Virus record (IMG/VR): IMGVR_UViG_3300045988_117852
Location: 75,613-139,612 of that record
Source: a virus
DNA length: 64,000 bases
Reading direction: 5' to 3' (one strand)
In this document: positions 7,526 to 46,136 of the stretch, one piece after another
How the letters are laid out: every line of letters begins with the position of its first letter
Position numbering within the stretch: the first letter of the stretch is position 1
The notes under the pieces: model-generated
What the model was told of the DNA's origin: nothing
Seen by the model: only the letters and a program-made list of their open reading frames with translations
Databases searched by the model: none
Position numbers and translations under genes: made by a program

Positions 7526-7583
7526 TACAGCCTGCCCTTGGAAAATCTTGTTTGCAATCATATATAAGAATAGAGGTGAAAAT

Positions 7584-18367: not shown

Positions 18368-18416
18368 TAATTCATGAAAATAACAAATGCAACTGGGGAA
18401 AGTTGAGGGACGTAAA

Positions 18417-18866: not shown

Positions 18867-18880
18867 AAATGGAGAATATT

Positions 18881-19897
18881 ATGAATAATAAAGAATTGAT
18901 ACAAAATTATATAGATTCTCATGTATCAGAATCACGTCGCCCAACATGGAATTGGTTATTTGATTCTGATATTGCGGATGACAATGAATCTGGGTTAACG
19001 TATGCACCAGGTACAATCCAAGAGGCTATATTATCAGATACTAGAGGTAAAAAAACCAAAAGTATGAATTCTATTAAAAAAAGATATGACCAGCTCGTTA
19101 AACTATATACTTATGCATATGAACAAAATTACATTAAATATAATCCATTTATTAATGATAAATTTATAAACTTGCAATTAGCAGTTGATATATATTTTTC
19201 AAATAGAGTTAATGTTAATTATGTTACACCAGATAAAATAAATGCGTTTATTTCGAATCTGATGTCGTGCAATGCATCAGCCGATACCAAATTGAATACT
19301 AGATTTCACATTGTGAGTTTATATAATGGGATAAATGGAAAGGAGTTAAGAAATCTAAAATTCTCAGATATTAATCAAAATGATTTAACAATTCTTGGGA
19401 AACCAGTCTCCAAAGATTTTATCGAGACATTGAATGAATATAAATTGAAAATGGGAGATACGAATATATATGATGATTTTGTATTAATACCACGAAAAAA
19501 ATGTAATAATATAGAAGAATATCAAGCAGAGCAAAAGAGGATATATAATAATGTGCAGTCTCAATTAGAATTAACTGGCAACACTTTATCTTATGAGAAA
19601 TTGACAACCATTGATGTTATTAATTCTGGTTTTATACAATATTTAAAATCTAAAATGGATATCAAGGCAATTGCAGATTTATATTATATTAAATCAAAAG
19701 AAGGAATTGCACGATCTGTAATCGCACGTCAATTTAGTGATATTGCAATTGATTTTTATTATAATTATTATATATCATATAGAATAAAGAAGAAACAATT
19801 TAGTGATCGTCAAACGGTAATCGGTAAAAGTATTGGTTACCTATATAAAGATGAGGACTATAAGAATTATCGTGTACATCAAATCATGGCAGAATAA
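18881..19897 (+). CDS. hypothetical protein, possibly a degenerate recombinase-like protein
   Basis: KELRNLKFSDINQNDLTILGKP resembles the integrase core-binding/Arg-box region, but no HxxR…Y was found. Confidence 0.25.
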   Translation: MNNKELIQNYIDSHVSESRRPTWNWLFDSDIADDNESGLTYAPGTIQEAILSDTRGKKTKSMNSIKKRYDQLVKLYTYAYEQNYIKYNPFINDKFINLQLAVDIYFSNRVNVNYVTPDKINAFISNLMSCNASADTKLNTRFHIVSLYNGINGKELRNLKFSDINQNDLTILGKPVSKDFIETLNEYKLKMGDTNIYDDFVLIPRKKCNNIEEYQAEQKRIYNNVQSQLELTGNTLSYEKLTTIDVINSGFIQYLKSKMDIKAIADLYYIKSKEGIARSVIARQFSDIAIDFYYNYYISYRIKKKQFSDRQTVIGKSIGYLYKDEDYKNYRVHQIMAE

Positions 19898-21121: not shown

Positions 21122-21204
21122 AGTTTCTTCTTTATTATATATGATGACTCGCACAGGCATTTGTGCAAAATTAAAATGTAAAATTATAACTTAGGAGGTA
21201 TTTA

Positions 21205-26444: not shown

Positions 26445-27035
26445 ATGGACGTTAATAAATTATTGGTTGTCGTCGATATGCAGAATGATTTCATCGACGG
26501 AAGCCTTGGAACCAAAGAAGCACAGGAAATTGTTCCCAAAGTAATTGAGAAAATTAAAAATTTTGATGGCATTATTGTTGCAACAATGGACACACACGAT
26601 GAAAATTATTTATCTACACAGGAAGGAAAGAATCTTCCAGTAAAGCATTGCATCTGCGGAGAAGATGGATGGCGGTTAAATCAAGAGGTAGGAGATGCTT
26701 TATCTAACAATATTTCCGTTGATGATAACAAAGACAAATCTATATTACCAGATGGTATGTACCGTAAAAGCACATTTGGATCATTAGACCTTGCACTTGA
26801 CTGCGAAGATGAATTTGGGATTGGTAATCGACTTCATCCAGAAAATGTGGAAATTACATTAATTGGTTTATGTACAGATATTTGTGTAATCTCCAATGCA
26901 ATGTTATTAAAAGTAGCACTACCAAAAGCAAAGATTATTGTAGATGCTTCCTGCTGTGCAGGAGTGACACCAGAGAGTCATAAGAATGCACTTGAAGCAA
27001 TGAAAATGTGTCAAATTGAAGTAATTAATGAATAA
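26445..27035 (+). CDS. pncA: nicotinamidase / isochorismatase-family cysteine hydrolase (PncA-like)
   Basis: VVVDMQNDF gives the catalytic Asp and LCTDICV the Cys nucleophile; ~196 aa is the usual size. Confidence 0.7.
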   Translation: MDVNKLLVVVDMQNDFIDGSLGTKEAQEIVPKVIEKIKNFDGIIVATMDTHDENYLSTQEGKNLPVKHCICGEDGWRLNQEVGDALSNNISVDDNKDKSILPDGMYRKSTFGSLDLALDCEDEFGIGNRLHPENVEITLIGLCTDICVISNAMLLKVALPKAKIIVDASCCAGVTPESHKNALEAMKMCQIEVINE

Positions 27036-27049
27036 AGGGGTGATAAAGA

Positions 27050-27886
27050 ATGATTAGTATTGGTGGAGTCCCAGTTGTTCCAGAATCTTTTCCAGATGGA
27101 ACGCAAAAAATTGATTTTTCGTTAGGTGCGATATCTCAAGAAATCATAGAAAACAAGACAGCGTATATCACATGGTTATATGAGTCAGATAAAGAGTTGT
27201 TTTCCTTGTTGTGTATTTCTAAAAATATTAAAGAACATTTTCCGTGGTTACAACAAGCATTAGTGATGCCGTATATACCAAATGCAAGATTTGACAGAGT
27301 AAAAGAGCCAAGCGAATGCTTTACATTAAAATATTTTGCAGAAATTATTAATAGTCTTGGATTTGTAAAAGTTATTGTAACTGATCCACATTCCGATGTA
27401 TCTACTGCATTGATTGATCATGTAGAAGTAATCCGTGGAGCATCATATATTACACAAACTTGTAGTAAAGTCCTTAAAGCAGAGTCATCAAGAAATCTTG
27501 TAATTTATTTTCCAGATAGCGGATCACTAAAAAGATATTCTGAATTTGTATCAGATGATTATCCGATTGTCTATGGAATTAAAAATCGTGATTGGAAGAC
27601 AGGAAAAATTCTTGGTATTGAGATTCATGGAGATACAGATAAATTAGATGAGAATACAGCAATTTTAATGATTGATGATATTTGTAGTAAGGGTGGCACA
27701 TTCTACTACGGATCAAAAGAATTAAACAAATACGGTTGTAAAGATATGTATTTGTATGTTACTCACTGTGAAAACACAATTCTTGATGGCGAATTACTAA
27801 AGGAAGATAGTTTGTTTAAAAAAGTGTATACGACACGTAGTATTTTTACCAAAGAGCATGAGAAAGTTGAGGTTATGGAGGGGTAA
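27050..27886 (+). CDS. ribose-phosphate pyrophosphokinase family protein (Prs-like; candidate ADPR-PP synthetase of a phage NAD+ reconstitution pathway)
   Basis: FPDGTQKIDF, MPYIPNARFDR (the Prs PYxxYxRQDR signature) and ILMIDDICSKGGTF (PRPP-binding loop). Confidence 0.65.
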   Translation: MISIGGVPVVPESFPDGTQKIDFSLGAISQEIIENKTAYITWLYESDKELFSLLCISKNIKEHFPWLQQALVMPYIPNARFDRVKEPSECFTLKYFAEIINSLGFVKVIVTDPHSDVSTALIDHVEVIRGASYITQTCSKVLKAESSRNLVIYFPDSGSLKRYSEFVSDDYPIVYGIKNRDWKTGKILGIEIHGDTDKLDENTAILMIDDICSKGGTFYYGSKELNKYGCKDMYLYVTHCENTILDGELLKEDSLFKKVYTTRSIFTKEHEKVEVMEG

Positions 27887-27936
27887 AAATAAGAGACAAA
27901 AGTGATTTAACAGGAAATTATTATGGGAATTGGTTA

Positions 27937-28635
27937 GTGAAAGGATTGTCGAACGAAAAATCCAAAGAAGGAAAGCCTTTATGGATATGTGAATGCCAAT
28001 GTCCTAATAAAACGATCAAACTACATAAACGACATGATTTAACTTCTGGAAAAACAAAATCTTGTGGGTGTATGGCTTCATATTTTAAGAATCAAACTAT
28101 GAAAAAAAATAAAATGAATCGTTATGTTTTTGATGAAGACATGTGTATAATCATTGCCAATAACACTCATAACAAATTTTATATTGATAAAGAAGATTAT
28201 GATTTAATTAAAGATTATATTTGGTATGAAACAGATAGAGGGTATTTGGCTACAACGATTGATCGTAAAACGATATTTCTTCATCGTATGGTTATGCATT
28301 TGTCAATAGATGATGATAGAATTGTCGATCATATTTATCATACCCCAGATGGGAAGAATAGTTTTTACAACAACAGAAAGTCAAATTTAAGAATTACAAC
28401 ACAGGCAAAAAATTGTGCGAATAGAGGACTGAGCAGTAATAATACATCTGGAGTGACAGGAGTATCATGGGATAAAAAATACTGTGTATGGAAGGCTTAT
28501 ATAACTTATAACAAGAAAAGATATTATCTAGGTTCTTATTCAAATATCAATGATGCAATTCAAGCGAGAAGATCAAAGGAAGTTGAATTTTTTGGAGAAT
28601 ATAAATATAAAGAAGCGGAGGAAAAAAATGAGTAA
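27937..28635 (+). CDS. HNH homing endonuclease with AP2-type DNA-binding domain
   Basis: HNH_3-like VDHIYHTPDGKNSFYNNRKSNLRITTQAKN, plus an AP2 module GVSWDKKYCVWKAYITYNKKRYYLGSYSNINDAIQAR. It overlaps the next gene's start by 8 nt. Confidence 0.65.
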   Translation: MKGLSNEKSKEGKPLWICECQCPNKTIKLHKRHDLTSGKTKSCGCMASYFKNQTMKKNKMNRYVFDEDMCIIIANNTHNKFYIDKEDYDLIKDYIWYETDRGYLATTIDRKTIFLHRMVMHLSIDDDRIVDHIYHTPDGKNSFYNNRKSNLRITTQAKNCANRGLSSNNTSGVTGVSWDKKYCVWKAYITYNKKRYYLGSYSNINDAIQARRSKEVEFFGEYKYKEAEEKNE

Positions 28636-30097
28636 TATTTCTTTTATGTTAATGGCAGATACATATAAAAATACAAATCCAGACGCAATGCCTAACGGAT
28701 TATCGAAATTAACTTCATATATCACACCAAGAAAATCAATGTTTAATAACATTAATAAAGTAGTGTTTTTTGGGCTACAAGGATTTATTAAAGAGTTTTT
28801 GATTGATTCAATAAATAATACATTTTTTAATAGAAATAAAGATGAAGTCATAAATGAATATAAAAAATATCTTGATACTCAGATTGGAGCCCAAAGTTAT
28901 AATATCAATAGAATTGAGCAACTATATGATTTAGGATATTTACCAATTGAAATGAAAGCATTACCAGAAGGTTCTCTTGTACCGATGGGGGTTCCGTGTA
29001 TTGAGTTAGTAAATACACACCCTAAGTTTGCATGGGTTGTACAATGGATTGAATGCATGACACAGTCAGAGCTGTATGGAACATGTAATTGGGCTACTAT
29101 GGCTCATGAATATCGAAAACTGGCAAATACCTTTTATGACAAAACTACCGATAATTCTGATCCATCAATGGCTATGGCGGATTTTGGGTTTAGAGGGCTT
29201 GGTGTAAATAATGGGATTAGAGCCAGTAGCTCATGGTTATTGTCTTTTAACAAAACGTCTACGATTCCAGCAATGCAGTATGTTGATAAAATGTATGATG
29301 CAAATTGCGAAAAGAATCATATTGGTATCGGAGCAGTAAGTCTTGAACATGCAACAGTGTGTTGTAATTTGGCAGTTTGTGAAACTGAAGAGAATTTACT
29401 TAGAAGGCTTCTGACAACGGTTTATAAAGATACTTCATTTAGTTATGTGTCAGATAGTTTTGACTATTGGAATCTTATTGATAATATATTACCTAAACTT
29501 AAAAAAGAAATTTTGGAGCATAACGGCAAATTTTTTGTGCGACCTGATAGCGGAGATATAGTAGAAATTTCTGTGCAAACTGTACAAAAACTTTATAAAA
29601 TTTTTGGGGGAAAAATAAATAAAAAAGGATATAAAGAGCTTAATCATAAAATTGGATTAATTTATGGTGATGGTTGCCAGTATGAGAAGATTAAAGAAAT
29701 TTGGACGCAGCTTGAACACCTTGGGTTTGCAGCGAATACAATTTTGTTTGGTGTTGGGGCATTTTCATTCACTGCAATGTCTACAGAAAAAGACGGACTC
29801 GTATGTCTAACGAGAGACACTTTCGGGTTTGCAATGAAGAGCACTGATTGTGTAATAAATGGTAAAGAATATATGATTCAAAAAGATCCTAAGACGGACA
29901 AAACAAAATTAAAAAAGTCACATAAAGGTTTATGCTATATAACCAATGATGATGGTAATTTTGTATGTCATGATGGATATACTTCAGAAAATCTTCCATT
30001 GAATAATCTGCTTGAGACGGTATTTAGAGATGGCAAATTGGTAAAAGAACAGTCATTACAGGAAATTAGAAGAGTTTTAAACGAAGGAGAATTTTAA
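28628..30097 (+). CDS. nicotinamide/nicotinate phosphoribosyltransferase family protein (NAMPT/NadV-like; candidate Namat)
   Basis: LMADTYK at the N-terminus, DFGFRG and IYGDGCQYEKI motifs; ~489 aa, typical for NAMPT. Confidence 0.7.
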   Translation: MSNISFMLMADTYKNTNPDAMPNGLSKLTSYITPRKSMFNNINKVVFFGLQGFIKEFLIDSINNTFFNRNKDEVINEYKKYLDTQIGAQSYNINRIEQLYDLGYLPIEMKALPEGSLVPMGVPCIELVNTHPKFAWVVQWIECMTQSELYGTCNWATMAHEYRKLANTFYDKTTDNSDPSMAMADFGFRGLGVNNGIRASSSWLLSFNKTSTIPAMQYVDKMYDANCEKNHIGIGAVSLEHATVCCNLAVCETEENLLRRLLTTVYKDTSFSYVSDSFDYWNLIDNILPKLKKEILEHNGKFFVRPDSGDIVEISVQTVQKLYKIFGGKINKKGYKELNHKIGLIYGDGCQYEKIKEIWTQLEHLGFAANTILFGVGAFSFTAMSTEKDGLVCLTRDTFGFAMKSTDCVINGKEYMIQKDPKTDKTKLKKSHKGLCYITNDDGNFVCHDGYTSENLPLNNLLETVFRDGKLVKEQSLQEIRRVLNEGEF

Positions 30098-30114
30098 GAG
30101 AGGAGATATAAAAC

Positions 30115-30885
30115 ATGAGTTTTAATGCAGCAGAAACCAAAGACAGATTAGTACAGTGGATTAGAGATTGGTTTAAAGTTAATGGAAGATGGTGTAATGC
30201 CGTTGTAGGAATTTCAGGCGGTAAAGATTCATCAGTTGTCGCTGCCTTATGTGTCGAAGCACTAGGTAAAGATCGAGTTATTGGAATTATGATGCCACAG
30301 GGTGTGCAGAGTGATATTGAGTATTCTCAGATGCTATGTGATCATCTAGGAATTGAACATTACACAGTTAATATTTTTAATGCTTGCAGAGATATTAAAC
30401 ATGAAATCAGAGATGAATTAGGCGGTAAATGGAGTAAACAGAGTGCCACAAATTTACCTGCTCGTATCCGAATGGCTACATTGTATGCTTTTGCACAGAG
30501 TATGAATGGAAGAGTAGCAAATACATGTAATTTATCTGAAGATTGGGTCGGATATGCAACAAGATATGGAGATTCAGCCGGAGATTTTAGTCCATTAAGT
30601 GATCTGACTGTGACAGAAGTTAAAGCAATTGGTAGAGTTCTGGGACTTCCAACAGAGTTAATCGAAAAAACACCTACTGATGGATTATGCGGTAAGACAG
30701 ATGAAGATAATCTTGGATTTACATATGATATGTTAGACGAATATCTGAGAACTGGAGTATGTAAAGATGAAGCAGTGAGACAGATCATTGACGAGATGCA
30801 TGAGAAGAATGTATTTAAACTTGCTCCAATGCCTAAATTTATATCTGGCATGTGGATCGAGGCAGGAATGGAGTTGGATGATTAA
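30115..30885 (+). CDS. nadE: NH3-dependent NAD+ synthetase
   Basis: ISGGKDSSVVAAL PP-loop (SGGxDS); 256 aa, typical NadE size. Confidence 0.7.
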   Translation: MSFNAAETKDRLVQWIRDWFKVNGRWCNAVVGISGGKDSSVVAALCVEALGKDRVIGIMMPQGVQSDIEYSQMLCDHLGIEHYTVNIFNACRDIKHEIRDELGGKWSKQSATNLPARIRMATLYAFAQSMNGRVANTCNLSEDWVGYATRYGDSAGDFSPLSDLTVTEVKAIGRVLGLPTELIEKTPTDGLCGKTDEDNLGFTYDMLDEYLRTGVCKDEAVRQIIDEMHEKNVFKLAPMPKFISGMWIEAGMELDD

Positions 30886-32760: not shown

Positions 32761-33495
32761 ATGACAATTATTATTATTTGTGTAATTGTAGCGATTATCG
32801 CATATTTACAATTTACTAAAAATGGAAAGCAGATTAAAAATGTGGCATCTGGAACAGTTACAGAAAAAATCAAAGAAAATGCAATGACTCCAGAGGGAGC
32901 AAGAGCCAGATATAATACTGCAATTAAAGATAAGCAGGATTTCTACCAGAAAACAATGGGTACATACACAATGGTAGCTGGTCGATTGGCAACAATGGAA
33001 GATAACCTCAAAGAAACAAAAGAAGAAATTTCTAAAACCGAGGCAATGATCAACCAGTATATTGATAACAATGATGATAAAAAAGCAATGTATTATGCTC
33101 AAAAATTAGCCACGCTCAAGGCACAGAAATCAGTGTACGAAAAGAAAATCCCAGAGTTGCAATCCACAAAAGATAAACAAGAAGAAATTAAAAACCAAGC
33201 GTATGATCAGCTCATTAAGCTAAAAAGCGAAAAAGATACTGTGGTTCTTCAGATGGAGGCAGATCAGCAGATTGCAGAATTGCAGAAAAATTTAGATCAA
33301 TACAATAGTTCAAATGCTGCTCAGGAAGGTTTGGAAGAGGTTCGAGAAGGAGCAAAGAAACTTAGCGAACAAGCCAAAGGCGTTGCTATTGCGTATGAAT
33401 CTAGTGCAGAAACATTGGATTATCATATGGAGCAAGAAGAGCGACAGCAAGAAGCTAAAGCCATATTAGATCAGATGAAAAATGCTCGCAAATAA
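32761..33495 (+). CDS. PspA/IM30-like coiled-coil protein with an N-terminal TM helix, tentative
   Basis: TM start (IIIICVIVAIIAYL), then a PspA-like heptad-rich helical region (ARYNTAIKDKQDF….MEDNLKETKEE). Confidence 0.35.
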   Translation: MTIIIICVIVAIIAYLQFTKNGKQIKNVASGTVTEKIKENAMTPEGARARYNTAIKDKQDFYQKTMGTYTMVAGRLATMEDNLKETKEEISKTEAMINQYIDNNDDKKAMYYAQKLATLKAQKSVYEKKIPELQSTKDKQEEIKNQAYDQLIKLKSEKDTVVLQMEADQQIAELQKNLDQYNSSNAAQEGLEEVREGAKKLSEQAKGVAIAYESSAETLDYHMEQEERQQEAKAILDQMKNARK

Positions 33496-33625
33496 CGAAT
33501 AAATTCATCTACAAAAATTAATTTCACAAACATAAAACTGGCATTTTATGGCACTATAAACCACAATATATAGTGTTTACTCAATTATCAAGCCACTATA
33601 TATAGTTGTATAAAGTGCCAGTTAT

Positions 33626-33763
33626 GGAAACATAGCTCAGTTGGTAGAGCAGGCAATACATACATTCTTTTTCTACCTCCGTATAAGTATTTTTATATTA
33701 TTTACATTTTAATTTTTCATCACATATAAATTGCCGACGCAGGTTCGATCCCTGTTGTTTCCA
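33626..33763 (+). tRNA. tRNA-like gene interrupted by a ~70-nt AT-rich insertion in the anticodon arm (anticodon uncertain)
   Basis: Perfect 7-bp acceptor stem (GGAAACA/TGTTTCC), canonical D-arm GCTCAGTTGGTAGAGC, T-arm GCAGG-TTCGATC-CCTGT, and anticodon-stem halves GGCAA (33652-56) and TTGCC (33731-35) 74 nt apart. Confidence 0.55.
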
Positions 33764-33765
33764 CT

Positions 33766-33801
33766 AAAAAAGACCTTAACCTAAATGGTCAAAGTCTTTT
33801 T
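33766..33801. terminator. bidirectional hairpin terminator (AAAAAAGAC…GTCTTTTT) between the tRNA-like gene and the XRE gene
   Basis: Stem with an A-tract on the 5' side and a T-tract on the 3' side. Confidence 0.5.
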
Positions 33802-33803
33802 GA

Positions 33804-34022
33804 TTAATCGTTTGGTATGACCTCGATAACATCTTCAATTTTGCAATCAAGATATAAGCAAATTTTGTCAATGTTTTCGAGACTGATATATTGGTGCTTT
33901 GCCATCTTAGCAATAGTACCAGGACTCATATGCAATGCGGTTCGCAAATCAGATTTTGTCATACTCTTTTTCGCTAAAGTAACGAAAAGCGGTTTATAAC
34001 TTATCATATGATATACCTCCAC
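33804..34022 (-). CDS. XRE-family helix-turn-helix transcriptional regulator (Cro/CI-like)
   Basis: MTKSDLRTALHMSPGTIAKMAKHQYISLENIDKICLYLDCKIEDV is an XRE-type HTH motif. It is the only clearly coding − strand gene in the window. Confidence 0.7.
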   Translation of the reverse strand: MEVYHMISYKPLFVTLAKKSMTKSDLRTALHMSPGTIAKMAKHQYISLENIDKICLYLDCKIEDVIEVIPND

Positions 34023-34088
34023 ATCTATATTGTAGCATATTACATACTAGATGTAAAATAAAATATTCAAGAAGTTGAAGATTTTGTA

Positions 34089-34117
34089 TTGACACTATCT
34101 GCAAGAAGTGGTATATT
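34089..34117 (+). promoter_or_regulatory. Sigma-A promoter TTGACA-17-TATATT with extended -10 TGg, divergent from the XRE gene; an inverted repeat ACATCTA-N19-TAGATGT lies at 34021-34053
   Basis: Hexamers read directly; a candidate operator palindrome sits between the divergent genes. Confidence 0.5.
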
Positions 34118-38365: not shown

Positions 38366-39973
38366 ATGACAGCTAAAGATAACACAATGGTAATTACTAG
38401 AAAAATCGCTTTGATTCCTGTCGCAAGTGAGCGAAAAGAATGGAAGAAAAGAATCAATTCTTTCTTAGAAAAAGATTTTCCAAGGAAAATTGAAGCAAAG
38501 AAGAAGCAGATCAAGAATACAAGCAAACCAGAAAAGAAAGACGGGTATAAACAGCAGCTCACAGAATTAGAAAAGCAATATGAAGATTTCAAAGAAAATA
38601 GAATCGAAGAATATACTCAGAAAATGGTTAACGATTATACATATGGTCTTGTGAGAGATGCAATGGAGAGCGAAGCAAGACGAAAGAACTACATTTTGTC
38701 TTACATATACACAAAAATGGTACAGGATGGAGTTGGATATATGCCAACATTGAAAGATAAATATACATGGATTAAAGAAAATATTAATGTTGCATATAGA
38801 CGAAAAGGAAGTAATAAAGGAAGCATCTTTGATGATGTTGACATTGACAATCCATTAGGTGGATACGGAACATGTTTCTCTCAGATATTAACAAGCAAGA
38901 TCAAAGATTTGGTTAAACAGGGATTGTTAGACGGCAAAGTGTCAATTCCGAATTTTAAAATTGACTCACCGTTTACAATTGCAAAAGCGTATTTTGATCT
39001 ATATCACGAATATGAAGATATAACAGAATTAAAGAAAAATATTCAAAATTCTGATTGTAAATTGTATTGTGGATTAGGTAACAAAGGTATTCCGACCATT
39101 GCAAATTTCAAAGTAAATATTGGACACAAAGGAAATAGAGATGAGTTGATTTCTACATTGTTAAGAATATTTACTGGAGAATACGAGATTTGTGGAAGTA
39201 CAATGCAGATTTCTAAAACAAAAATTATTTTAAATTTATCAATTAGAATTCCTAAAACACAACTTGAATTAGATGAGGACACTGTAGTTGGTGTCGATCT
39301 TGGAGTTGCAATTCCAGCGGTATGTTCTTTGAATAATAACAAATATAAGAGAGAGTATATTGGTAGTAGTGACGATTTTATTAGAATGAGAACGAAATTA
39401 CAGCATGAGAAACAGCAGTTACAGAAAGCGTTAAAAATGTCAAAAGGCGGACATGGAAGAAAAAGAAAGTTGTTGGCATTAGAAAGATGTAAAAAGAAAG
39501 AATATAACTTTGTTGAAACATACTGTCACAAAGTAAGCAAGAAAGTGGTTGATTTTGCGGTCAAGAATAAAGCGAAATATATCAATGTAGAAAATCTTTC
39601 GGGATATGATTCAAGTAAATTCATTTTAAGAAATTGGAGTTTTTATAAACTTCAGCAATACATAGAATATAAAGCTGCAAAATATGGCATTGAAGTTAGA
39701 AAAGTAAATCCTTCATTTACATCTCAAGTGTGTAGTTTCTGCGGACATTGGGAAGACGGGCAGAGAAAAGATCAAGCAACATTTGTTTGTGGTAATCCTG
39801 ATTGTGAAAGTCATAAGTTGCATATGGTAAATGCAGACTACAATGCATCAAGAAATATTGCGATGTCAACATTATTTACAAGTGATAAATTTCAATTTTG
39901 TAAAAAGACAATGCAAGATGCGGCTGAGTATTACGGTATTCAATTAGATAATGAAGATCAATTAGCAGCGTAA
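38366..39973 (+). CDS. TnpB/Cas12-like RNA-guided-nuclease-family protein (RuvC split domain plus zinc finger), 535 aa
   Basis: RuvC-I VGVDLGV, RuvC-II …YINVENL…, OrfB Zn-ribbon CSFCGH…CGNPDC, RuvC-III NADYNASRNIA. The N-terminus MVITRKIALIP resembles the TnpB start. There is no upstream left-end/TnpA. Confidence 0.7.
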   Translation: MTAKDNTMVITRKIALIPVASERKEWKKRINSFLEKDFPRKIEAKKKQIKNTSKPEKKDGYKQQLTELEKQYEDFKENRIEEYTQKMVNDYTYGLVRDAMESEARRKNYILSYIYTKMVQDGVGYMPTLKDKYTWIKENINVAYRRKGSNKGSIFDDVDIDNPLGGYGTCFSQILTSKIKDLVKQGLLDGKVSIPNFKIDSPFTIAKAYFDLYHEYEDITELKKNIQNSDCKLYCGLGNKGIPTIANFKVNIGHKGNRDELISTLLRIFTGEYEICGSTMQISKTKIILNLSIRIPKTQLELDEDTVVGVDLGVAIPAVCSLNNNKYKREYIGSSDDFIRMRTKLQHEKQQLQKALKMSKGGHGRKRKLLALERCKKKEYNFVETYCHKVSKKVVDFAVKNKAKYINVENLSGYDSSKFILRNWSFYKLQQYIEYKAAKYGIEVRKVNPSFTSQVCSFCGHWEDGQRKDQATFVCGNPDCESHKLHMVNADYNASRNIAMSTLFTSDKFQFCKKTMQDAAEYYGIQLDNEDQLAA

Positions 39974-40925: not shown

Positions 40926-41230
40926 TGAACAACTTCTTATATATTGAATCACGGGAAGAAGAGAATACATCCCTCGATTCTAAACGTGTTTTATTGAATG
41001 AAGAAAATTACAAACATATTATTTCATCATTAGATCATTATCCACCGACGGCAGACGAAGTTAAGAAAGCAATTTGTATTTTGACTGGACGATTGATCTA
41101 CAGAAGCGTTTGGAATATGGAATCTGATATTGATAGTTTAAATATGAGTTTATCACCGCCAAAAGAAATGACGGTTGCAGAAATTGAAAAGGAACTTGGT
41201 TATAAAGTTAAGATTGTAAAGGAGAAATAA
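40925..41230 (+). CDS. hypothetical protein
   Basis: GGAGAG RBS. Confidence 0.4.
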   Translation: MNNFLYIESREEENTSLDSKRVLLNEENYKHIISSLDHYPPTADEVKKAICILTGRLIYRSVWNMESDIDSLNMSLSPPKEMTVAEIEKELGYKVKIVKEK

Positions 41231-41541
41231 TGCCAATGGCAAAAAAGAAACAAGGAATGTCGTTTGAAATGATGATGCAAAATATGGAAATTAATCCAAG
41301 GCAATTGTATCGTCGTAGTTCGTGGAAGAAGACACGAACAACTTATGATTATGTGTTTATGATGTGCGAAGAAGAATTAAATGAGATTATTCCATTTGAT
41401 AAAAAATATAAAATGAAACCACTCTTATGTAGAGACCAAAATGGAGTTATAACATTGGGATGGTTGCCTACACAAGAGGATATTTTCGCAAATGATTGGG
41501 TTGAGCAAGGATGGGATTTTAACAGTAAAAGGAAGAGGTGA
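41230..41541 (+). CDS. hypothetical protein
   Basis: ORF, translationally coupled to the previous gene. Confidence 0.4.
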   Translation: MPMAKKKQGMSFEMMMQNMEINPRQLYRRSSWKKTRTTYDYVFMMCEEELNEIIPFDKKYKMKPLLCRDQNGVITLGWLPTQEDIFANDWVEQGWDFNSKRKR

Positions 41542-41549
41542 ATAATTAA

Positions 41550-41849
41550 TTGAATTTTATAAAAGCAATGATCGCAATAAAAAAAGACAAAACTACTATA
41601 AGAAGAGGCATTTGGGGAAAGGAAAAGTATTTGAAAATTTATTCGTCAGAATTAACTAATGTTTATTTTGAGTGTAATGATATGGGTGAATATAAGCCAG
41701 ATTCAATTATTTTTTTATTTGATAAAGAAAACGCAGAAGTTTGGATACCTCTTGCGGAAGATGTATATGCAGATGACTGGGAAATATATGTTGAATCGGT
41801 TAAAAAGCCAAATCAATCAAAAGCAAAGGTGAAGGAGAAAGAAGAATGA
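41550..41849 (+). CDS. hypothetical protein (TTG start as called)
   Basis: GAGGTG lies 9 nt upstream of TTG 41550. Confidence 0.35.
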   Translation: MNFIKAMIAIKKDKTTIRRGIWGKEKYLKIYSSELTNVYFECNDMGEYKPDSIIFLFDKENAEVWIPLAEDVYADDWEIYVESVKKPNQSKAKVKEKEE

Positions 41850-43222: not shown

Positions 43223-44008
43223 ATGTCAAGGAAAAATACAAGAGAATTTGAACTTGCTTTTAGTAAACATAGAGACCCAGATTGGGAAGCCGATGTAGAG
43301 ATTTATGGAAAAAGGGTTTTAAAAACAGTACGTGGTATTTGTCTTGGTGATGAATGGACAGAAATTAATTCATTGAGAAACAAGGATCATATTGAGTTAG
43401 CGGAGATGTTTTGTAATTTTGACGATCATAATCCACATTTTAATCTGAGCCCTCAATATGTTTTATTGGATAAGTTTTCTATAACATCTCCTGCGATATT
43501 GTGTAGTGATGAAATAGTTATGAAAAATGGCAAAGTTTTGAATGTTGATAATATATCAGCAAATCTATCAGGCAAAAATGAAGTATACAAGATTTATTCA
43601 AATACAAAATATGATGATTATACATATTATGATGAATCAGAAAATTTAGTATTTGAATTAGCATCAAAAGATGTTGATAAGATAATCCGATTTATGAGAG
43701 ATTTTATGGATGAATTACGTGATGCTAAATTAACAAAGTATAGAAATAGTAATTTTTTATGGAGACTATTTAACACTCTTGATATGCCACATTTTAAACA
43801 AACATATTCCATGAATGATTTGAAAAAATATACAAACACATTTAGATCTGAGGTTTGTGGTCAACTAAAAGAAACTATTCCTAATTTTAAATATACTGGA
43901 GTTCCAATGGGCGGGTATATTGAAAGATATTTTGAATTAAGTTATGTAGAGGAAGTACAAAAATTCATTAAAGAACAGGAGGCAAAGAGATGTGAAGAAA
44001 CTAAATGA
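43223..44008 (+). CDS. hypothetical protein (261 aa)
   Basis: ORF. Confidence 0.45.
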   Translation: MSRKNTREFELAFSKHRDPDWEADVEIYGKRVLKTVRGICLGDEWTEINSLRNKDHIELAEMFCNFDDHNPHFNLSPQYVLLDKFSITSPAILCSDEIVMKNGKVLNVDNISANLSGKNEVYKIYSNTKYDDYTYYDESENLVFELASKDVDKIIRFMRDFMDELRDAKLTKYRNSNFLWRLFNTLDMPHFKQTYSMNDLKKYTNTFRSEVCGQLKETIPNFKYTGVPMGGYIERYFELSYVEEVQKFIKEQEAKRCEETK

Positions 44009-44525
44009 TGAACAGCGAAGGCTGATTGAAGATAATTACTCTTTGATTTGGCATTTACATGAAAAATATTTTACAAAGTTTACAGATTTTGATACATATA
44101 TGGATCTTGGTCGTATGGCAATTTGTAAAGCAGCATTAAAATGGGACGAGTCTAAAGGAACTTTTGGTACATATCTCTTCTGGGTATTACGTTCAGAAGT
44201 GAATCAATATTATACAAAATGGCACAGACTAACAGAAAAAATGAATAGGAATGCTGAATCGTTAGATACACCATTGGCAGGATACGAACCAGAAGATGAT
44301 ATTACAATCGGAACAACACTGATGAGTAAAGATAATGTAGAGGATGAGGTGCTTACAAAGGTACATTTTCAAAATGAGTTTGATAAATTGGCACCGAGAA
44401 ATAAAAAGATTATCACGTTAAAGCAGAAAGGTTTAACACAAAGACAAATTGCAAGTCAGCTTGGAATCACTCATCAGTGGGTTAGTCAAAATATTGTACA
44501 GTTTAAGAAAGCATTATGTGGATAA
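43992..44525 (+). CDS. sigma-70-family RNA polymerase sigma factor
   Basis: Region-2-like …YMDLGRMAICKAALKWDESKG.FGTYLFWVLRSEV and region-4 HTH LTQRQIASQLGITHQWVSQNI. GTG start as called. Confidence 0.6.
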   Translation: MKKLNDEQRRLIEDNYSLIWHLHEKYFTKFTDFDTYMDLGRMAICKAALKWDESKGTFGTYLFWVLRSEVNQYYTKWHRLTEKMNRNAESLDTPLAGYEPEDDITIGTTLMSKDNVEDEVLTKVHFQNEFDKLAPRNKKIITLKQKGLTQRQIASQLGITHQWVSQNIVQFKKALCG

Positions 44526-44538
44526 AAGAGGTGAGATC

Positions 44539-45369
44539 ATGACAATTGAAGAAGTAAAAGATTACATAAACTCGTCTCCAGAGTATGACTTTTTACGAGA
44601 TTATCCTCACAAAATCGCTTTTCTCACGCTAGGTGGAAGTTATGCCTACGGAACAAATACAGAGGATTCTGATATTGATTTACGTGGTGTTTTCCTTAGT
44701 GATAAAAGAGAGATTTTGTTGAATGACAGCACGAAACTGGTGGATACCAAAAAGGATACTGATACGGTAATGTATACATTAAAAAAATATGTCGACCTAT
44801 GTGCTAAAGGTAATCCTACAACATTAGAACTGTTGTATAATCGTCCAGAATGTTATTTGTATATATCTGATATAGGTATGGAACTAATTAAAAATCGAAA
44901 TATGTTTTTATCTAAGAAAATTTGGTATGCATTTGATGGATGTGTAGAGGCTTTGAACGAACAAACTGTCAGAAGTTATGACGCAACTGTTTTAACAGAA
45001 GATCAGATTAATTTGGTAAGGAAAAAGGCTTGCAAGGCTATGATGCATGTAATTAGAGTAATGCATAACGGAACAGCGTTATTGAAAACATCTACAATGC
45101 AAACTTACAATTTTGAACTTCTCAGACGAGCTTTATTATTACTGAGAGATGGAGTTTATTGTAGTAGTATGATGATCAAAGGAAGAGCAACTGATCATAT
45201 ATTCAAACGATTTGTTCCATCTAATGATTTTGGGGAGCTATTTGATGTATTTTATCAAGCTTTTGAAAACGCATTTAAAACTACAACCTTACCAGACGAA
45301 CCAGACTGGAATCGTATTAATGATTTTCTGGCAACAACAAATGAACGAATTGTGAGAGAGATGGTGTGA
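44539..45369 (+). CDS. Pol-beta-superfamily nucleotidyltransferase-fold protein
   Basis: GGSYAYGTNTEDSDIDLRGVF gives the hG[GS]-x11-DxD NTase signature; a helical C-terminal half follows. Confidence 0.5.
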   Translation: MTIEEVKDYINSSPEYDFLRDYPHKIAFLTLGGSYAYGTNTEDSDIDLRGVFLSDKREILLNDSTKLVDTKKDTDTVMYTLKKYVDLCAKGNPTTLELLYNRPECYLYISDIGMELIKNRNMFLSKKIWYAFDGCVEALNEQTVRSYDATVLTEDQINLVRKKACKAMMHVIRVMHNGTALLKTSTMQTYNFELLRRALLLLRDGVYCSSMMIKGRATDHIFKRFVPSNDFGELFDVFYQAFENAFKTTTLPDEPDWNRINDFLATTNERIVREMV

Positions 45370-45370
45370 T

Positions 45371-45640
45371 ATGTATGTAAAGATTGGAGATGAAATTGCT
45401 TTTCATCCTGGTGAATGTTTAGAAGAATTTATTGAATCTTGCAGTATAACTCCTTATCAGCTTGCGAGTAAAATCGGTATGGATGTCGATTATGTGCAAG
45501 GGCTGATTGACGGGTCACAAAGTGTTACAAAAGAATTTGCAAAAGCAATGGCAGATCATTATGGATTTGCTAATGATGGACAGTTTTGGTTAAATTTACA
45601 AGAAACATTTAATAAGAAAGTGGGTGGTAGAGATGTTTAA
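45371..45640 (+). CDS. HigA/VapI-family XRE HTH antitoxin-like protein
   Basis: HPGECLEEFIES…ITPYQLASKIGMDVDYVQGLIDGSQSVTKEFAKAMADHYGF…FWLNLQ is a close match to the HigA consensus (HPGE.L.E.F…….LA..G…..V..L..G……A..L….G….FWLNLQ). Confidence 0.65.
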   Translation: MYVKIGDEIAFHPGECLEEFIESCSITPYQLASKIGMDVDYVQGLIDGSQSVTKEFAKAMADHYGFANDGQFWLNLQETFNKKVGGRDV

Positions 45641-46136
45641 TTTGTTGAAAAGTGATGTAAAATTTGACAAGGAATATACCGTTAAAGAATTTATTGAAGA
45701 AATGATGCAAACAAGAGTTGGGGATTGGGGATATATCAATATTTATGATAATGCGAAGCGTATTGAACAATTAGAATATGATACGGCAGGATATTATGTT
45801 GCATCAGACAATGAAGATCATAAGATTAAAAAGGCATATGCAGTCCGTAGAGGCTCAAGAACGGATTATAATATCTGTATTGAATATCAAAAACAGAAGC
45901 CGAATAAAGTAGCAAAAGGCGCGCTCAGATTTATCGTTAAGAAGCCGAATGGAGAAGAATCAGTAGTTGTTATTTTTAAGAATAAAGCCGATGGCACATA
46001 TTCGTTTGTTAATTTGACAAAAGAGCATATTTGTTCGTGCAAATTTAAGACAATTGAGGAAGCGATTCAGGATATGAATGACCGACTAAAGAAAGGATTG
46101 ATTGAGTCCTATATTGTAAAAGGAGAAAGAAAATAA
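45633..46136 (+). CDS. hypothetical protein
   Basis: ORF. Confidence 0.4.
   Translation: MFNLLKSDVKFDKEYTVKEFIEEMMQTRVGDWGYINIYDNAKRIEQLEYDTAGYYVASDNEDHKIKKAYAVRRGSRTDYNICIEYQKQKPNKVAKGALRFIVKKPNGEESVVVIFKNKADGTYSFVNLTKEHICSCKFKTIEEAIQDMNDRLKKGLIESYIVKGERK

What the first reader, a model, noticed from the sequence alone, without database searches (positions are those of the whole stretch)
33500..33801. tRNA-like gene with a ~70-nt insertion in the anticodon arm, preceded by nested palindromes
A cloverleaf with a perfect 7-bp acceptor stem, canonical D-arm and T-arm can be drawn only if 74 nt are looped out. That stretch (33657–33730) is very AT-rich and lies between the two halves of the anticodon stem, GGCAA (33652–33656) and TTGCC (33731–33735). 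This is too short for a group I intron and bacteria lack BHB-type introns. It is therefore a disrupted or pseudo tRNA, a novel small intervening element, or a tRNA-mimic used as an integration/recombination site. Read contiguously on the 5' side, the anticodon would be CAU but with an atypical A33. Directly upstream (33539–33623) lie nested inverted repeats: AACTGGCA…TGCCAGTT and two CACTATA–TATAGTG palindromes.
Basis: seen in the sequence. Interest (0 to 1): 0.6.

Follow-up and report, generated by a model that had tools for sequence, protein, structure and literature searches.

The report
Phage tRNA-like gene lacking anticodon arm
A family of ~160-kb gut phages carries a conserved gene that folds like a tRNA, except that a ~70-base AU-rich stretch matching no known intron type sits where the anticodon loop should be; it is most likely a non-decoding tRNA mimic or RNA-processing signal, not a working tRNA, a simply broken tRNA or an integration site.

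Summary
Window 33626-33763 (+) matches the Rfam tRNA model over its full length (43.2 bits, threshold 29), but only by skipping the anticodon arm. A 74-nt insert (19% GC) lies between GGCAA and TTGCC. The element is single-copy and present in every close relative examined (more than 50 contigs, ~20 sequence variants, 134-142 nt). The tRNA body and the insert both vary less than neighbouring synonymous sites. The insert is not a group I intron, a BHB intron or a known ribozyme, and it is predicted unstructured. No splice restores a normal anticodon loop except one giving an unnatural AUA anticodon, and that triplet itself varies (CTA, ACA) in other haplotypes. The 5' junction differs by small indels, and one natural variant carries a 1.55-kb IscB insertion element there. 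Distant relatives have, at the same relative position, a tRNA-like element with no anticodon arm, or with a different AU-rich insert. No integrase is adjacent. Best reading (about 45%): a non-decoding tRNA-derived RNA or processing module closing an accessory, anti-defence-rich operon. Rivals: a tRNA spliced by an unknown route (about 20%), or an inert relic (about 22%). The nearest precedent is the "enigmatic" tRNA introns of Lak megaphages. Interest is moderate.

The parts
33536..33623 (+). Upstream hairpin ending 2 nt before the tRNA-like 5' end. The outer stem AACTGGCA/TGCCAGTT is conserved. The inner ~62-nt palindromic segment is optional among relatives.
   Evidence: Inverted repeats I1, I2 and I13. 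RNA fold -28.1 kcal/mol, z -4.75; the short form in relatives folds at -13.7 kcal/mol, z -5.0. Long versus short forms are seen.
33626..33656 (+). 5' half of the tRNA-like body: acceptor 5' strand, U8 A9, canonical D arm (A14, G18 G19, A21), A26, and the 5' strand of the closing stem (GGCAA).
   Evidence: Rfam tRNA alignment. ARAGORN -i cloverleaf. Lowest diversity of the locus, pi 0.008.
33657..33730 (+). 74-nt AU-rich segment (19% GC, 2 G) in place of the anticodon loop. Its first ~11 nt (33657-33667) are hypervariable. Blocks TTTTTCTACCTCC, TATAAGTATTTT, TTATTTACATTT and TTTTCATCACATATAAA are conserved.
   Evidence: Sequence. Predicted unstructured: -4.4 kcal/mol, z -1.06. Variants. Composition. 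An IscB insertion element lies after GGCAATAC in L416.
33731..33763 (+). 3' half of the tRNA-like body: TTGCC, a 3-nt variable region (GAC), the T arm (G53:C61, T54 T55 C56, A58), the acceptor 3' strand and discriminator A73. No CCA is encoded.
   Evidence: pi 0.023.
33767..33801 (.). Hairpin with an A-tract on one side and a T-tract on the other, lying between the tRNA-like gene and the convergent HTH gene. It is a probable bidirectional terminator.
   Evidence: Inverted repeat I4, 15-nt arms, 87% complementary. Fold -10.6 kcal/mol, z -3.0. The simple terminator scan did not call it.
32761..33495 (+). Upstream gene (244 aa, PHROG 33389, function unknown). It is the last gene of a + strand block that includes NAD-salvage genes and a flotillin. 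It is the synteny anchor used to find relatives.
33804..34022 (-). Convergent Cro/CI-type HTH gene (context only). Predicted divergent promoters lie at 34029-34117.
   Evidence: Pfam HTH_26, 1.5e-14. Promoter scan.

Best explanation
This is a genuine, vertically conserved, phage-borne gene derived from a tRNA, and it no longer decodes. The acceptor stem, D arm and T arm are intact and make up the selected part. The position of the anticodon loop is filled by a ~70-nt AU-rich, essentially single-stranded segment that is not an intron of any known class.

Inferred mechanism:
- The element is transcribed at the 3' end of the + strand accessory operon (PncA-like, NAMPT-like, NadE, flotillin, 244-aa gene).
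- RNase P cuts at G33626, immediately after the strong upstream hairpin. That hairpin then caps the 3' end of the upstream mRNA.
- RNase Z or the terminator hairpin defines the 3' end after A33763. The host CCA-adding enzyme may then extend it.
- The product is a ~138-nt tRNA-shaped RNA with an expanded loop. It serves as a processing or punctuation module, as a tRNA mimic (a decoy or substrate for tRNA-binding enzymes), or both. The setting is a phage region rich in counter-defence genes.

Shown: the tRNA-like fold, its conservation, the absence of known intron features, the variable 5' junction, and analogous elements without an anticodon arm in distant relatives. Inferred: transcription, RNase P/Z processing, retention of the insert, and the biological role.
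For: (1) Full-length tRNA model match at 43.2 bits here and 42.5-46.8 bits in eight relatives. All canonical tertiary residues are present.

(2) The element is present in all 41 close relatives of the first set and in 50 contigs found by an insert motif. It is always single-copy, in the same orientation and at the same place.

(3) Constraint. Variable alignment columns are 11/64 in the tRNA body and 12/74 in the insert, against 81/203 at third codon positions of the two downstream genes (Fisher p = 8e-4 and 1.7e-4). pi is 0.008 and 0.023 in the body halves and 0.043 in the insert, against 0.084-0.118 at third positions.

(4) Of 8 substitutions in stems, 6 keep pairing through G-U. 99.5% of cells are paired, against 26-51% when the partners are slid.

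(5) It is not a decodable tRNA.
- The only canonical 7-nt loop obtainable gives anticodon AUA, with the intron at 32/33.
- That triplet is CTA in L417 and ACA in L416.
- The alternative CAU reading has A33, and its register shifts with indels.
- The variable region is 3 nt.
- The closest cellular bodies found are Lachnospiraceae tRNA-Val. They share the T stem (15-16 of 17 T-arm positions, which the search pattern did not impose) but have an unrelated anticodon arm. So the whole arm was replaced, not merely interrupted.

(6) There is no intron signature. The insert is 74 nt with 2 G, no Rfam intron or ribozyme hit at E <= 1, an unstructured fold (z -1.06), and a symmetric 2x2 internal loop instead of a BHB.

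(7) Distant relatives, whose anchor protein is 37-38% identical, carry a tRNA-like element after the homologous gene.
- In L042 it is 57 nt with no anticodon arm (Rfam tRNA 23.9 bits, E 0.013 in a 551-nt search).
- In L045, L046 and L074 it has the same ends plus a ~78-nt AU-rich insert (fold z -4.74).
- In both it sits just upstream of the ribosome-binding site of a CCA-adding enzyme gene.

(8) The neighbourhood is accessory or counter-defence: NAD-salvage genes, two Tad2-like genes, an RlaP RNA-repair nucleotidyltransferase.
Against: - There are no expression data, so transcription, processing and retention of the insert are all inferred.
- The insert is itself under some constraint. A pure 'filler' does not explain this, and no target or partner was found. 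Predicted pairing to translation-initiation regions in the window is no better than for shuffled inserts (24 of 60 shuffles do as well).
- A 70-nt unstructured AU-rich loop should be very sensitive to RNases.
- There is no compensatory covariation. The relatives are too close to provide it.
- The L042 and L045 elements share position and architecture with the window's element but not sequence, so homology is not shown. The Rfam tRNA model does not score the L045 or L043 versions.
- Natural variants carry an IscB insertion (L416), a T54G change (L419) or two acceptor mismatches (L009). These show the element is dispensable at least in the short term.
Confidence: 0.45

Rival explanations
1. It is an intron-containing tRNA gene. 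The AU-rich segment is removed by an unknown protein-dependent or host-dependent route, neither group I nor BHB, as must be supposed for the 'enigmatic' introns of Lak megaphage tRNAs. The product is a ~72-nt decoding tRNA with anticodon AUA under ARAGORN's reading, or CAU if spliced at 37/38.
For: - ARAGORN with the intron option builds a canonical cloverleaf with the loop U-U-AUA-A-A. The A36-A37-A38 run is typical of tRNAs that read UNN codons.
- The 3' junction (TTTTCATCACATATAAA) is invariant in 46 of the 47 haplotypes of the IMG/VR set.
- UAU is the dominant Tyr codon of the phage, 41 per thousand against 10 for UAC.
- Lak phages have short, conserved, non-group-I inserts in tRNA genes (PMC6784885).
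- Many other viral contigs carry 110-139-nt interrupted tRNA genes inside normal tRNA arrays. Several are tRNA-Tyr(GTA) or tRNA-His(GTG) with the insert right after the anticodon. So some removal route may exist.
- An RlaP RNA-repair nucleotidyltransferase is encoded at 44449-45369.
Against: - An A34 AUA anticodon is essentially unused in nature (established knowledge).
- The triplet is CTA and ACA in two other haplotypes.
- The CAU reading needs A33, and indels shift its register.
- The variable region is 3 nt.
- A bacterial tRNA-Tyr needs a long variable arm, which is absent here.
- No splicing endonuclease or RNA ligase was found among the ~70 ORFs scanned in the window.
- Conserved interior blocks are not expected for an intron removed by proteins.
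- Syntenic elements in L042 have no anticodon arm at all.
Confidence: 0.2
2. It is an inert relic. A captured tRNA gene had its anticodon arm destroyed by an old insertion or rearrangement. It now persists only because these phages diverged recently, or because it hitch-hikes with the adjacent regulatory module.
For: - All carriers are closely related. Mean column identity of the element is 95%.
- There is no compensatory covariation.
- The motif ACATA is repeated at both junctions (TACATA... and ...CACATATAAA). This could be a footprint of an insertion at the anticodon loop.
- Disabled alleles circulate: an IscB insertion element in L416, T54G in L419, and two acceptor mismatches in L009.
- In a subset of eight contigs the insert (pi 0.027) and the 3' half (0.033) are not much less variable than the terminator plus HTH gene (0.047).
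Against: - The body and the insert have 2.5-fold fewer variable columns than adjacent third codon positions in the same genomes (p about 1e-3 to 2e-4). The other intergenic DNA of the locus is 2-3 times more diverse than the insert (pi 0.07-0.12).
- The 5' half is invariant in the subset.
- No relative has lost the element or carries an uninterrupted ancestor.
- A different tRNA-like element without an anticodon arm recurs at the equivalent position in distant relatives.
Confidence: 0.22
3. It is a DNA-level site: an attP-like or recombination target that mimics a tRNA gene.
For: - A tyrosine recombinase is encoded at 16232-17182, and a second integrase-like ORF at 18869-19897.
- The last 26 nt resemble the 3' end of Lachnospiraceae tRNA-Val, as two 11-nt identical blocks.
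- The locus is used as a target by an IscB insertion element in one variant.
Against: - The recombinase genes are 14-16 kb away. attP normally adjoins int.
- No gene flanking the element in the eight annotated related contigs is a recombinase.
- An att site needs only one half of a tRNA. Here both halves are kept, with 7/7 acceptor complementarity and full D and T arms.
- The identity to host tRNA is broken by 2 mismatches.
- The phage belongs to a group related to phiCD211 and c-st. By my recollection these large clostridial phages are maintained as plasmids rather than integrated; this was not checked here.
Confidence: 0.03
4. The functional product is on the minus strand. GGAGG followed 7-10 nt later by ATG (33680 down to 33662) starts a small ORF that is antisense to the tRNA 5' half.
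For: - The motif GGAGGTAGAAAAATG is a textbook ribosome-binding site plus start codon. It is conserved in most haplotypes.
- The phage uses Shine-Dalgarno sequences.
- The window differs from the majority form by a 3-nt indel that keeps the reading frame.
Against: - Across 47 haplotypes the ORF takes three frames and lengths from 9 to 46 aa. 13 haplotypes are truncated to 9-11 aa.
- No promoter-like site lies upstream on that strand.
- A terminator hairpin separates it from the HTH gene.
- The residues that do look conserved are explained by overlap with the conserved tRNA half.
Confidence: 0.03

Closest known systems
'Enigmatic' tRNA introns of Lak megaphages (Devoto et al. 2019, PMC6784885)
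   Same: Both are short inserts (93 nt in the tRNA-Tyr(GTA) example shown in Table S6) that are not group I introns. Both lie in the anticodon loop of tRNA genes of gut phages, are near-identical between genomes, and have no known removal mechanism.
   Different: - Lak inserts follow an intact anticodon (for example CTGTAT|intron), so a normal tRNA results on removal. Here no normal loop can be restored, and the whole anticodon arm and variable region are non-canonical.
- The Lak genomes encode about 30-35 tRNAs each. This element is the only tRNA-like gene in 64 kb.
- The hosts differ: Prevotella for Lak, probably Clostridia here.
tRNA-like processing modules and mimics (MALAT1/mascRNA, mitochondrial tRNA punctuation, MHV68 TMER tRNA-like elements, phage T4 stable RNAs C/D). 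Recalled from established literature, not tested here.
   Same: All have a tRNA-shaped body that is recognised by RNase P and RNase Z (and by the CCA-adding enzyme) but does not decode. In the MALAT1 case, a structured element just upstream protects the 3' end of the upstream RNA after RNase P cleavage. Here the hairpin at 33536-33623 abuts the predicted RNase P site.
   Different: None of these has a ~70-nt single-stranded AU-rich loop in place of the anticodon loop. Processing has not been demonstrated here. There is no sequence relationship.
Group I introns in bacterial tRNA anticodon loops (cyanobacteria, Patescibacteria; PMC13011429)
   Same: Both interrupt the anticodon loop of a tRNA gene in a bacterial-type genome.
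   Different: Group I introns are 200 nt or longer, structured, and end in G. This insert is 74 nt, contains 2 G, is unstructured, and gives no Rfam hit.
Archaeal and eukaryal BHB tRNA introns
   Same: Both are short, protein-spliced in principle, and can sit at non-canonical positions such as 32/33.
   Different: There is no bulge-helix-bulge. The junctions form a 6-bp stem, a symmetric 2x2 internal loop and 3 bp. No splicing endonuclease is found in the window. Bacterial hosts lack one (established knowledge).
tmRNA
   Same: Both have a tRNA-like acceptor and T-arm domain enclosing a long non-tRNA insert.
   Different: tmRNA lacks a D stem, has G3:U70, pseudoknots and a tag reading frame. 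Here the D arm is canonical, position 3:70 is A:U, there are no pseudoknots, and ARAGORN's tmRNA search is negative.

Membership tests
Canonical tRNA (Rfam RF00005) | 7-bp acceptor stem, D arm and T arm with conserved tertiary residues; score above the family threshold | tested here: met
   43.2 bits against a gathering score of 29, over model positions 1-71. U8, A14, G18 G19, A21, G53:C61, T54 T55 C56 and A58 are all present.
Canonical tRNA (Rfam RF00005) | 5-bp anticodon stem closing a 7-nt loop with U33 and a usable anticodon; 4-5-nt (or long) variable region | tested here: not met
   The loop is 74 nt and the variable region is 3 nt. Default ARAGORN finds no gene. The readings available are A33-CAU or A34 AUA. 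The triplet varies among haplotypes.
Group I intron in a tRNA | P1-P9 catalytic core (200 nt or more), terminal G, match to the Rfam group I model | tested here: not met
   The insert is 74 nt with 2 G, and the last ~49 nt contain none. There is no intron or ribozyme hit at E <= 1. Fold z = -1.06.
BHB (archaeal/eukaryal) tRNA intron | Two 3-nt bulges separated by a 4-bp helix at the splice sites | tested here: not met
   The junction pairing is GGCAAU/AUUGCC, then a 2x2 internal loop, then AUA/UAU. No BHB can be drawn.
BHB (archaeal/eukaryal) tRNA intron | A splicing endonuclease and an RNA ligase available | tested here: inconclusive
   Neither was found among the ~70 ORFs of the window scanned. 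Only an RlaP nucleotidyltransferase was seen. About 100 kb of the phage genome and the host genome were not seen.
Lak-type 'enigmatic' phage tRNA intron | Short insert, not group I, in a phage tRNA gene, conserved between genomes | tested here: met
   compared with PMC6784885.
Lak-type 'enigmatic' phage tRNA intron | Removal of the insert restores a normal anticodon loop and a standard anticodon | tested here: not met
   Only AUA (with A34) or A33-CAU are obtainable.
tmRNA | tRNA-like domain without a D stem, G3:U70, tag ORF, pseudoknots | tested here: not met
   ARAGORN -m finds no tmRNA. Rfam gives no tmRNA hit. Position 3:70 is A:U and the D arm is canonical.
tRNA-type attP / integration site | Adjacent integrase gene | tested here: not met
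   The nearest recombinases are at 16232-17182 and 18869-19897. No recombinase is among the flanking genes called in eight related contigs.
tRNA-type attP / integration site | Uninterrupted identity block with the 3' part of a host tRNA gene | tested here: inconclusive
   The best cellular matches (Lachnospiraceae tRNA-Val) share two 11-nt blocks separated by 2 mismatches. The host is unknown.
Non-decoding tRNA-like processing element or mimic | Intact acceptor/T-arm 'top half', sufficient for RNase P, RNase Z and the CCA-adding enzyme | tested here: met
   7/7 acceptor pairs, a 5-bp T stem and a canonical T loop.
Non-decoding tRNA-like processing element or mimic | The element is actually transcribed and cleaved by RNase P/Z; a stable RNA accumulates | not testable with these tools
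   No transcriptome or biochemical data are available.

The most novel reading that the evidence does not exclude
The AU-rich segment is a true intron, removed by an undiscovered splicing route in bacteria or phage that needs neither a ribozyme nor a BHB motif. That route would be shared with the Lak-phage introns and with the many interrupted tRNA genes seen in viral contigs. Under ARAGORN's intron placement the product would be a tRNA with an NUA anticodon (AUA; CUA, an amber-suppressor anticodon, in one natural variant).
Probability: 0.12. Interest if true: 0.85.

Novelty: new variant of a known kind. Interest (0 to 1): 0.5.

Why it matters
Bacteria and their viruses are thought to have only self-splicing introns in tRNA genes. 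Short inserts that are not ribozymes have so far been reported, to my knowledge, only as an unexplained oddity of Lak megaphages. This locus is a second, well-sampled example, with more than 50 genomes and ~20 alleles.

It also has informative natural variants:
- alleles with changed 'anticodons';
- one allele split by an IscB element;
- sister lineages with the anticodon arm deleted.

Together these argue that phages keep tRNA-shaped RNAs for something other than decoding. In addition, a single pattern scan found at least 89 further interrupted tRNA-like genes in viral contigs. Standard tRNA finders would miss them. Phage tRNA repertoires, and any tRNA-mimic or decoy biology linked to anti-defence, are therefore probably under-counted. 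If splicing does occur, it would point to a new RNA-processing pathway in bacteria.

Tried and rejected
- **Close or distant DNA matches in cultured phages.** None beyond generic tRNA similarity.
- **Uninterrupted copy of this tRNA.** Patterns with a 7-nt loop, or with the same acceptor stem and D arm, gave nothing in viral contigs. In bacterial genomes the same acceptor stem and D arm belong to tRNA-Val or tRNA-Lys with unrelated anticodon arms.
- **Host identification through the insert motif in bacterial genomes.** No hit.
- **Metagenome scan with GAGCAGGCAAN{7,37}TTGCCGAC.** Wasted. All 120 hits were chance matches and none was in a tRNA context.
- **Mobile-element hypothesis for the insert.** It is single-copy, with no second copy in the window, in L416 or in the carrier contigs.
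- **Antisense small ORF.** The reading frame is not conserved.
- **Insert as an anti-Shine-Dalgarno or sRNA seed (CCUCC).** Predicted duplexes with 79 translation-initiation regions are no better than for shuffled inserts. The motif search gave 4 hits against 2 expected. One 16-nt perfect antisense match lies at 21167-21182, in the 5' UTR of the antirepressor gene at 21205. I estimate it as marginal by chance, and it falls in an indel-variable part of the insert.
- **MazF link.** There are three UACAU pentads in the insert and a phage MazF-like gene at 18387-18866. However, UACAU is not depleted genome-wide, and cleavage at these sites would not give a 7-nt loop.
- **Covariation.** The relatives are too close, and there are no double changes.
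- **Rfam tRNA on the L043 and L045 sister elements.** No score.
Full report
**1. The observation**

It has a perfect 7-bp acceptor stem (GGAAACA/TGTTTCC), a canonical D arm (GCTC-AGTTGGTA-GAGC) and a canonical T arm (GCAGG-TTCGATC-CCTGT). GGCAA (33652-33656) and TTGCC (33731-33735) enclose 74 nt.

The Rfam tRNA model matches from position 1 to 71 at 43.2 bits (threshold 29). The E-value is 7.4e-06 for the whole window. The match replaces the anticodon arm with an 81-nt skip. It is the only Rfam hit in the 64 kb. Default ARAGORN finds no tRNA in the window. With its intron option it draws a cloverleaf, 'tRNA-Tyr(ATA)', with a 67-nt intron between positions 32 and 33.

The variable region is only 3 nt (GAC), and no CCA is encoded.

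The upstream inverted repeats are real. They fold into a -28.1 kcal/mol hairpin (z -4.75) that ends 2 nt before G1. A hairpin flanked by an A-tract and a T-tract follows at 33767-33801 (z -3.0). It lies between the element and a convergent Cro/CI-type HTH gene.

**2. Genomic setting**

The window is part of a large phage.
- Almost all genes are on the + strand.
- Its DNA polymerase III alpha subunit is 42% identical to those of Clostridioides and Clostridium phages phiCD211 and c-st.
- Genes use Shine-Dalgarno sites.
- No cultured phage is close at the DNA level.

Upstream of the element lie a PncA-like isochorismatase, a NAMPT/NAPRT-like enzyme, NAD synthase, a flotillin and a 244-aa protein of unknown function. 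Further downstream are two Tad2-like (Thoeris anti-defence) genes, nucleoside deoxyribosyltransferase-like genes, an RlaP RNA-repair nucleotidyltransferase, a TnpB-like gene and two sigma factors. The element therefore closes an accessory operon in a region rich in counter-defence genes.

The nearest recombinase genes are 14-16 kb away.

**3. Conservation**

The 244-aa protein was used as an anchor and gave 75 related loci in IMG/VR. All 41 loci in which that protein is 72-99% identical carry the element. It is always at the same place and in the same orientation, 134-142 nt long. A motif from the insert finds 50 contigs, one copy each, all from this ~160-kb phage family. No copy without the insert was found in viral contigs.

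Across 47 distinct 1.6-kb haplotypes, diversity was as follows.

| Region | pi |
|---|---|
| 5' half of the tRNA body | 0.008 |
| 3' half of the tRNA body | 0.023 |
| Insert | 0.043 |
| Other intergenic DNA of the locus | 0.07-0.12 |
| Third codon positions of the two downstream genes | 0.084-0.118 |

Variable columns are 11/64 in the body and 12/74 in the insert, against 81/203 at third codon positions (Fisher p = 8e-4 and 1.7e-4). Against the immediately adjacent HTH gene alone, the insert gives p = 0.02. So both the tRNA body and, more weakly, the insert are under constraint.

Within the insert:
- The first ~11 nt are hypervariable.
- Two A/T runs vary in length.
- The blocks TTTTTCTACCTCC, TATAAGTATTTT, TTATTTACATTT and TTTTCATCACATATAAA are nearly fixed.

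Of eight substitutions in stems, six keep pairing through G-U. Two, both in one haplotype, break acceptor pairs. There are no compensatory double changes, because the genomes are too similar. Structural support therefore rests on the model score and on conservation, not on covariation.

**4. What the insert is not**

- **Not a group I intron.** It has 19% GC and only 2 G.
- **Not structured.** The fold is -4.4 kcal/mol, z -1.06.
- **Not a known intron or ribozyme.** There is no such hit at E <= 1.
- **Not a BHB intron.** The junctions pair as a 6-bp stem, a symmetric 2x2 internal loop and 3 bp.
- **Not a repeated mobile element**.
- **Not coding on the minus strand.** GGAGG-N7-ATG looks like a start site, but the ORF takes three frames and 9-46 aa among haplotypes. 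No promoter is predicted there.
- **Not an evident antisense regulator.** Predicted duplexes with 79 translation-initiation regions are matched or beaten by 24 of 60 shuffled inserts.

**5. Can it decode?**

Read from the 5' side, the loop is U-A-CAU-A-(A/C). The near-universal U33 is replaced by A. An extra A in 6 of 47 haplotypes, and 1-3-nt indels, shift this register.

Read from the 3' side (ARAGORN's model), the loop is U-U-AUA-A-A. This is canonical in form, but A34 is essentially unused in natural tRNAs, and a bacterial tRNA-Tyr would need a long variable arm. Further haplotypes found through exact matches of the 244-aa protein have CTA (L417) or ACA (L416) at that triplet. One (L419) has T54G.

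The closest cellular tRNA bodies found are Lachnospiraceae tRNA-Val(GAC/CAC). They have the same acceptor stem and D arm, which the search pattern imposed. They also have 15-16 of 17 identical T-arm positions, which the pattern did not impose. Their anticodon arm and 5-nt variable loop are unrelated. The whole central domain was therefore replaced, rather than a loop interrupted.

The closest phage tRNAs are tRNA-Ile and tRNA-Met genes, at 74-77% over the full length. Codon usage gives no clear need. AUA is 15% of Ile codons and UAU is 80% of Tyr codons.

No splicing endonuclease or RNA ligase was seen among the ~70 ORFs scanned.

**6. Informative natural variants and sister lineages**

*(a) An IscB insertion.* In L416 (Logan SRR27390249) a 1.55-kb segment is inserted inside the element, after GGCAATAC and before ATTCATTTTT. 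It encodes a 419-aa RRXRR+HNH (IscB-type) protein, preceded by ~290 nt of structured non-coding sequence. The insertion point is exactly the microsegment that is hypervariable in other genomes: ATAAAC, ATAAC, ATAC, ACAAC, and absent in L416. The element is therefore dispensable at least in the short term, and its 5' junction is a target of an IS200/IS605-type element.

*(b) Sister lineages.* In distant relatives the anchor protein is 37-38% identical.
- The intergenic region after it in L042 holds a 57-nt tRNA-like element. It has a 6-bp acceptor stem, a D-arm remnant, a T arm and no anticodon arm. Rfam tRNA scores 23.9 bits, below threshold, with E 0.013 in a 551-nt search.
- L045, L046 and L074 have the same ends with a ~78-nt AU-rich insert at that point. 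It folds into two hairpins (z -4.74).
- In both forms the element ends just upstream of the ribosome-binding site of a CCA-adding enzyme gene. A phosphoesterase gene follows.
- These elements share position and architecture with the window's element, but not sequence. The Rfam model does not score the L045 or L043 forms. This is supporting evidence, not proof.

**7. Interpretation**

The most economical reading is that this phage group keeps tRNA-shaped elements whose acceptor, D and T body is what matters. The central domain is free to be deleted, replaced or expanded.

A body of this kind is the known substrate of RNase P, RNase Z and the CCA-adding enzyme (established knowledge). With a strong hairpin abutting the predicted RNase P site and a terminator after the discriminator, the element would define the 3' end of the upstream operon mRNA. 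It would also release a ~138-nt tRNA-like RNA.

Whether that RNA has a further role cannot be decided here. It could, for example, be a decoy or substrate for tRNA-directed host defences or repair enzymes. The modest constraint on the insert suggests it is not pure filler.

I put about 45% on this non-decoding reading. I put about 20% on a tRNA spliced by an unknown route, about 22% on an inert relic, and a few percent each on an att-type site and an antisense ORF.

**8. Comparison with known systems, and novelty**

The nearest precedent is the set of short, conserved, unexplained introns in Lak megaphage tRNA genes (PMC6784885). Those leave an intact anticodon, and this element does not.

It works most like tRNA-like processing elements and mimics (mascRNA, mitochondrial tRNA punctuation, MHV68 tRNA-like elements; recalled knowledge). 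It is not a member of any curated family other than, partially, RF00005.

It yielded 89 genes (70 distinct sequences) with closed acceptor stems, 110-139 nt long. Many lie in phage tRNA arrays, and the 14 loci scanned with Rfam gave tRNA scores of 42-59 bits for them. Interrupted tRNA-like genes therefore seem common in viral contigs and are overlooked by default tools.

I rate this finding a new variant of a known but unexplained kind, of moderate interest.

Noticed in passing
L416:3899-5456 (Logan SRR27390249_329); equivalent to window ~33659/33668: A 1.55-kb insertion encoding a 419-aa RRXRR+HNH (IscB-type) protein, with ~290 nt of upstream non-coding sequence (a probable omega RNA). It sits inside the tRNA-like gene, after GGCAATAC. 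The insertion point coincides with a 0-6-nt hypervariable microsegment (ATAAAC / ATAAC / ATAC / ACAAC) in other genomes. These variants could be target-adjacent-motif escape variants or repair scars from the element's guided nuclease.
   Followed up: partly
L292-L411 (viral contigs; e.g. L295:6628-6745, L292 minus strand 4110-4237, L357 minus strand 611-725, 812-926 and 1158-1269): A single pattern scan found 89 tRNA-like genes (70 distinct), 110-139 nt long, with perfect acceptor, D and T arms and 40-65 extra nt in the middle. Many lie inside phage tRNA arrays. By eye there are three classes: (1) tRNA-Tyr(GTA) or tRNA-His(GTG) with an insert after the anticodon, some from giant-virus MAGs; (2) a 'hairpin + ACAGCAA' class; (3) a 'hairpin + GTTACTTC + anticodon-like hairpin' class. 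I found no description of classes 2 and 3 in the literature searched.
   Followed up: partly
L042:6081-6137; L045:6061-6195 (also L046, L074): A mini tRNA-like element lies just upstream of the ribosome-binding site of a phage CCA-adding enzyme gene. It has no anticodon arm in L042 and a ~78-nt AU-rich two-hairpin insert in L045. It follows a TerD x3 / P-type ATPase cluster. About 230 nt of conserved non-coding sequence lies upstream (for example TCACCCCGTAACTGGTAAGGA...GCACACCACTAT) with no Rfam match. It could be an autoregulatory or processing element for the CCA enzyme gene.
   Followed up: partly
L043:6075-6229 (also L044): At the same relative position there is a different ~150-nt sequence. 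Its possible acceptor strands are ATTCGG...CCGAAT. It has a class-II-like D arm (GGCGGAATAGGTAGACGC) and two T-arm-like hairpins. No Rfam family scores it.
   Followed up: partly
window 26445-30885 and 41230-41849: A counter-defence-like gene set: a PncA-like isochorismatase, a NAMPT/NAPRT-like enzyme and NAD synthase (NAD+ reconstitution), plus two adjacent Tad2-like (Thoeris anti-defence 2) genes.
   Followed up: partly
window 44449-45369: An RlaP-family (RNA-ligase-associated Pol-beta) nucleotidyltransferase, with no recognisable RNA ligase next to it. The neighbouring ORFs 43223-44008 and 45624-46136 have no family match.
   Followed up: partly
window 38366-39973: A 535-aa TnpB-like protein (OrfB_IS605 + Cas12f1-like TNB domain), i.e. 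a second OMEGA-type element in this phage family. Its omega RNA and ends were not examined.
   Followed up: no
window 18387-18866 and 33657-33707: The phage encodes a MazF/PemK-like toxin. The insert contains three UACAU pentads (33657, 33661, 33703). By recollection this is the recognition sequence of Firmicute MazF enzymes. Three in 150 nt is among the densest clusters in the window, but the motif is not depleted elsewhere.
   Followed up: partly
window 33701-33716 versus 21167-21182: A 16-nt perfect antisense match between the insert (TTTACATTTTAATTTT) and the 5' UTR of the Bro-N/KilAC antirepressor gene that starts at 21205. It was also the top predicted duplex. I estimate it as marginal by chance (roughly 0.05-0.1), and it lies in a part of the insert whose length varies between genomes.
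   Followed up: partly
window 33549-33620: The inner ~62-nt palindromic segment of the upstream hairpin is present in most relatives but absent in L027, L031, L036 and L040. It contains 17-nt direct repeats at 33558 and 33590 and CACTATA/TATAGTG arms. It looks like a small palindromic insertion into the hairpin loop.
   Followed up: partly
window 16232-17182, 18869-19897, 7548-8018: A tyrosine recombinase, a second weak integrase-like ORF, and a HicB-like antitoxin. Together with MazF these suggest plasmid-prophage maintenance functions.
   Followed up: no
window 58897-60162: A 421-aa ORF with HNH and LAGLIDADG homing-endonuclease matches, lying between the RecJ-like gene and the DNA polymerase III alpha gene. 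It is a possible free-standing or intron-borne homing endonuclease.
   Followed up: no
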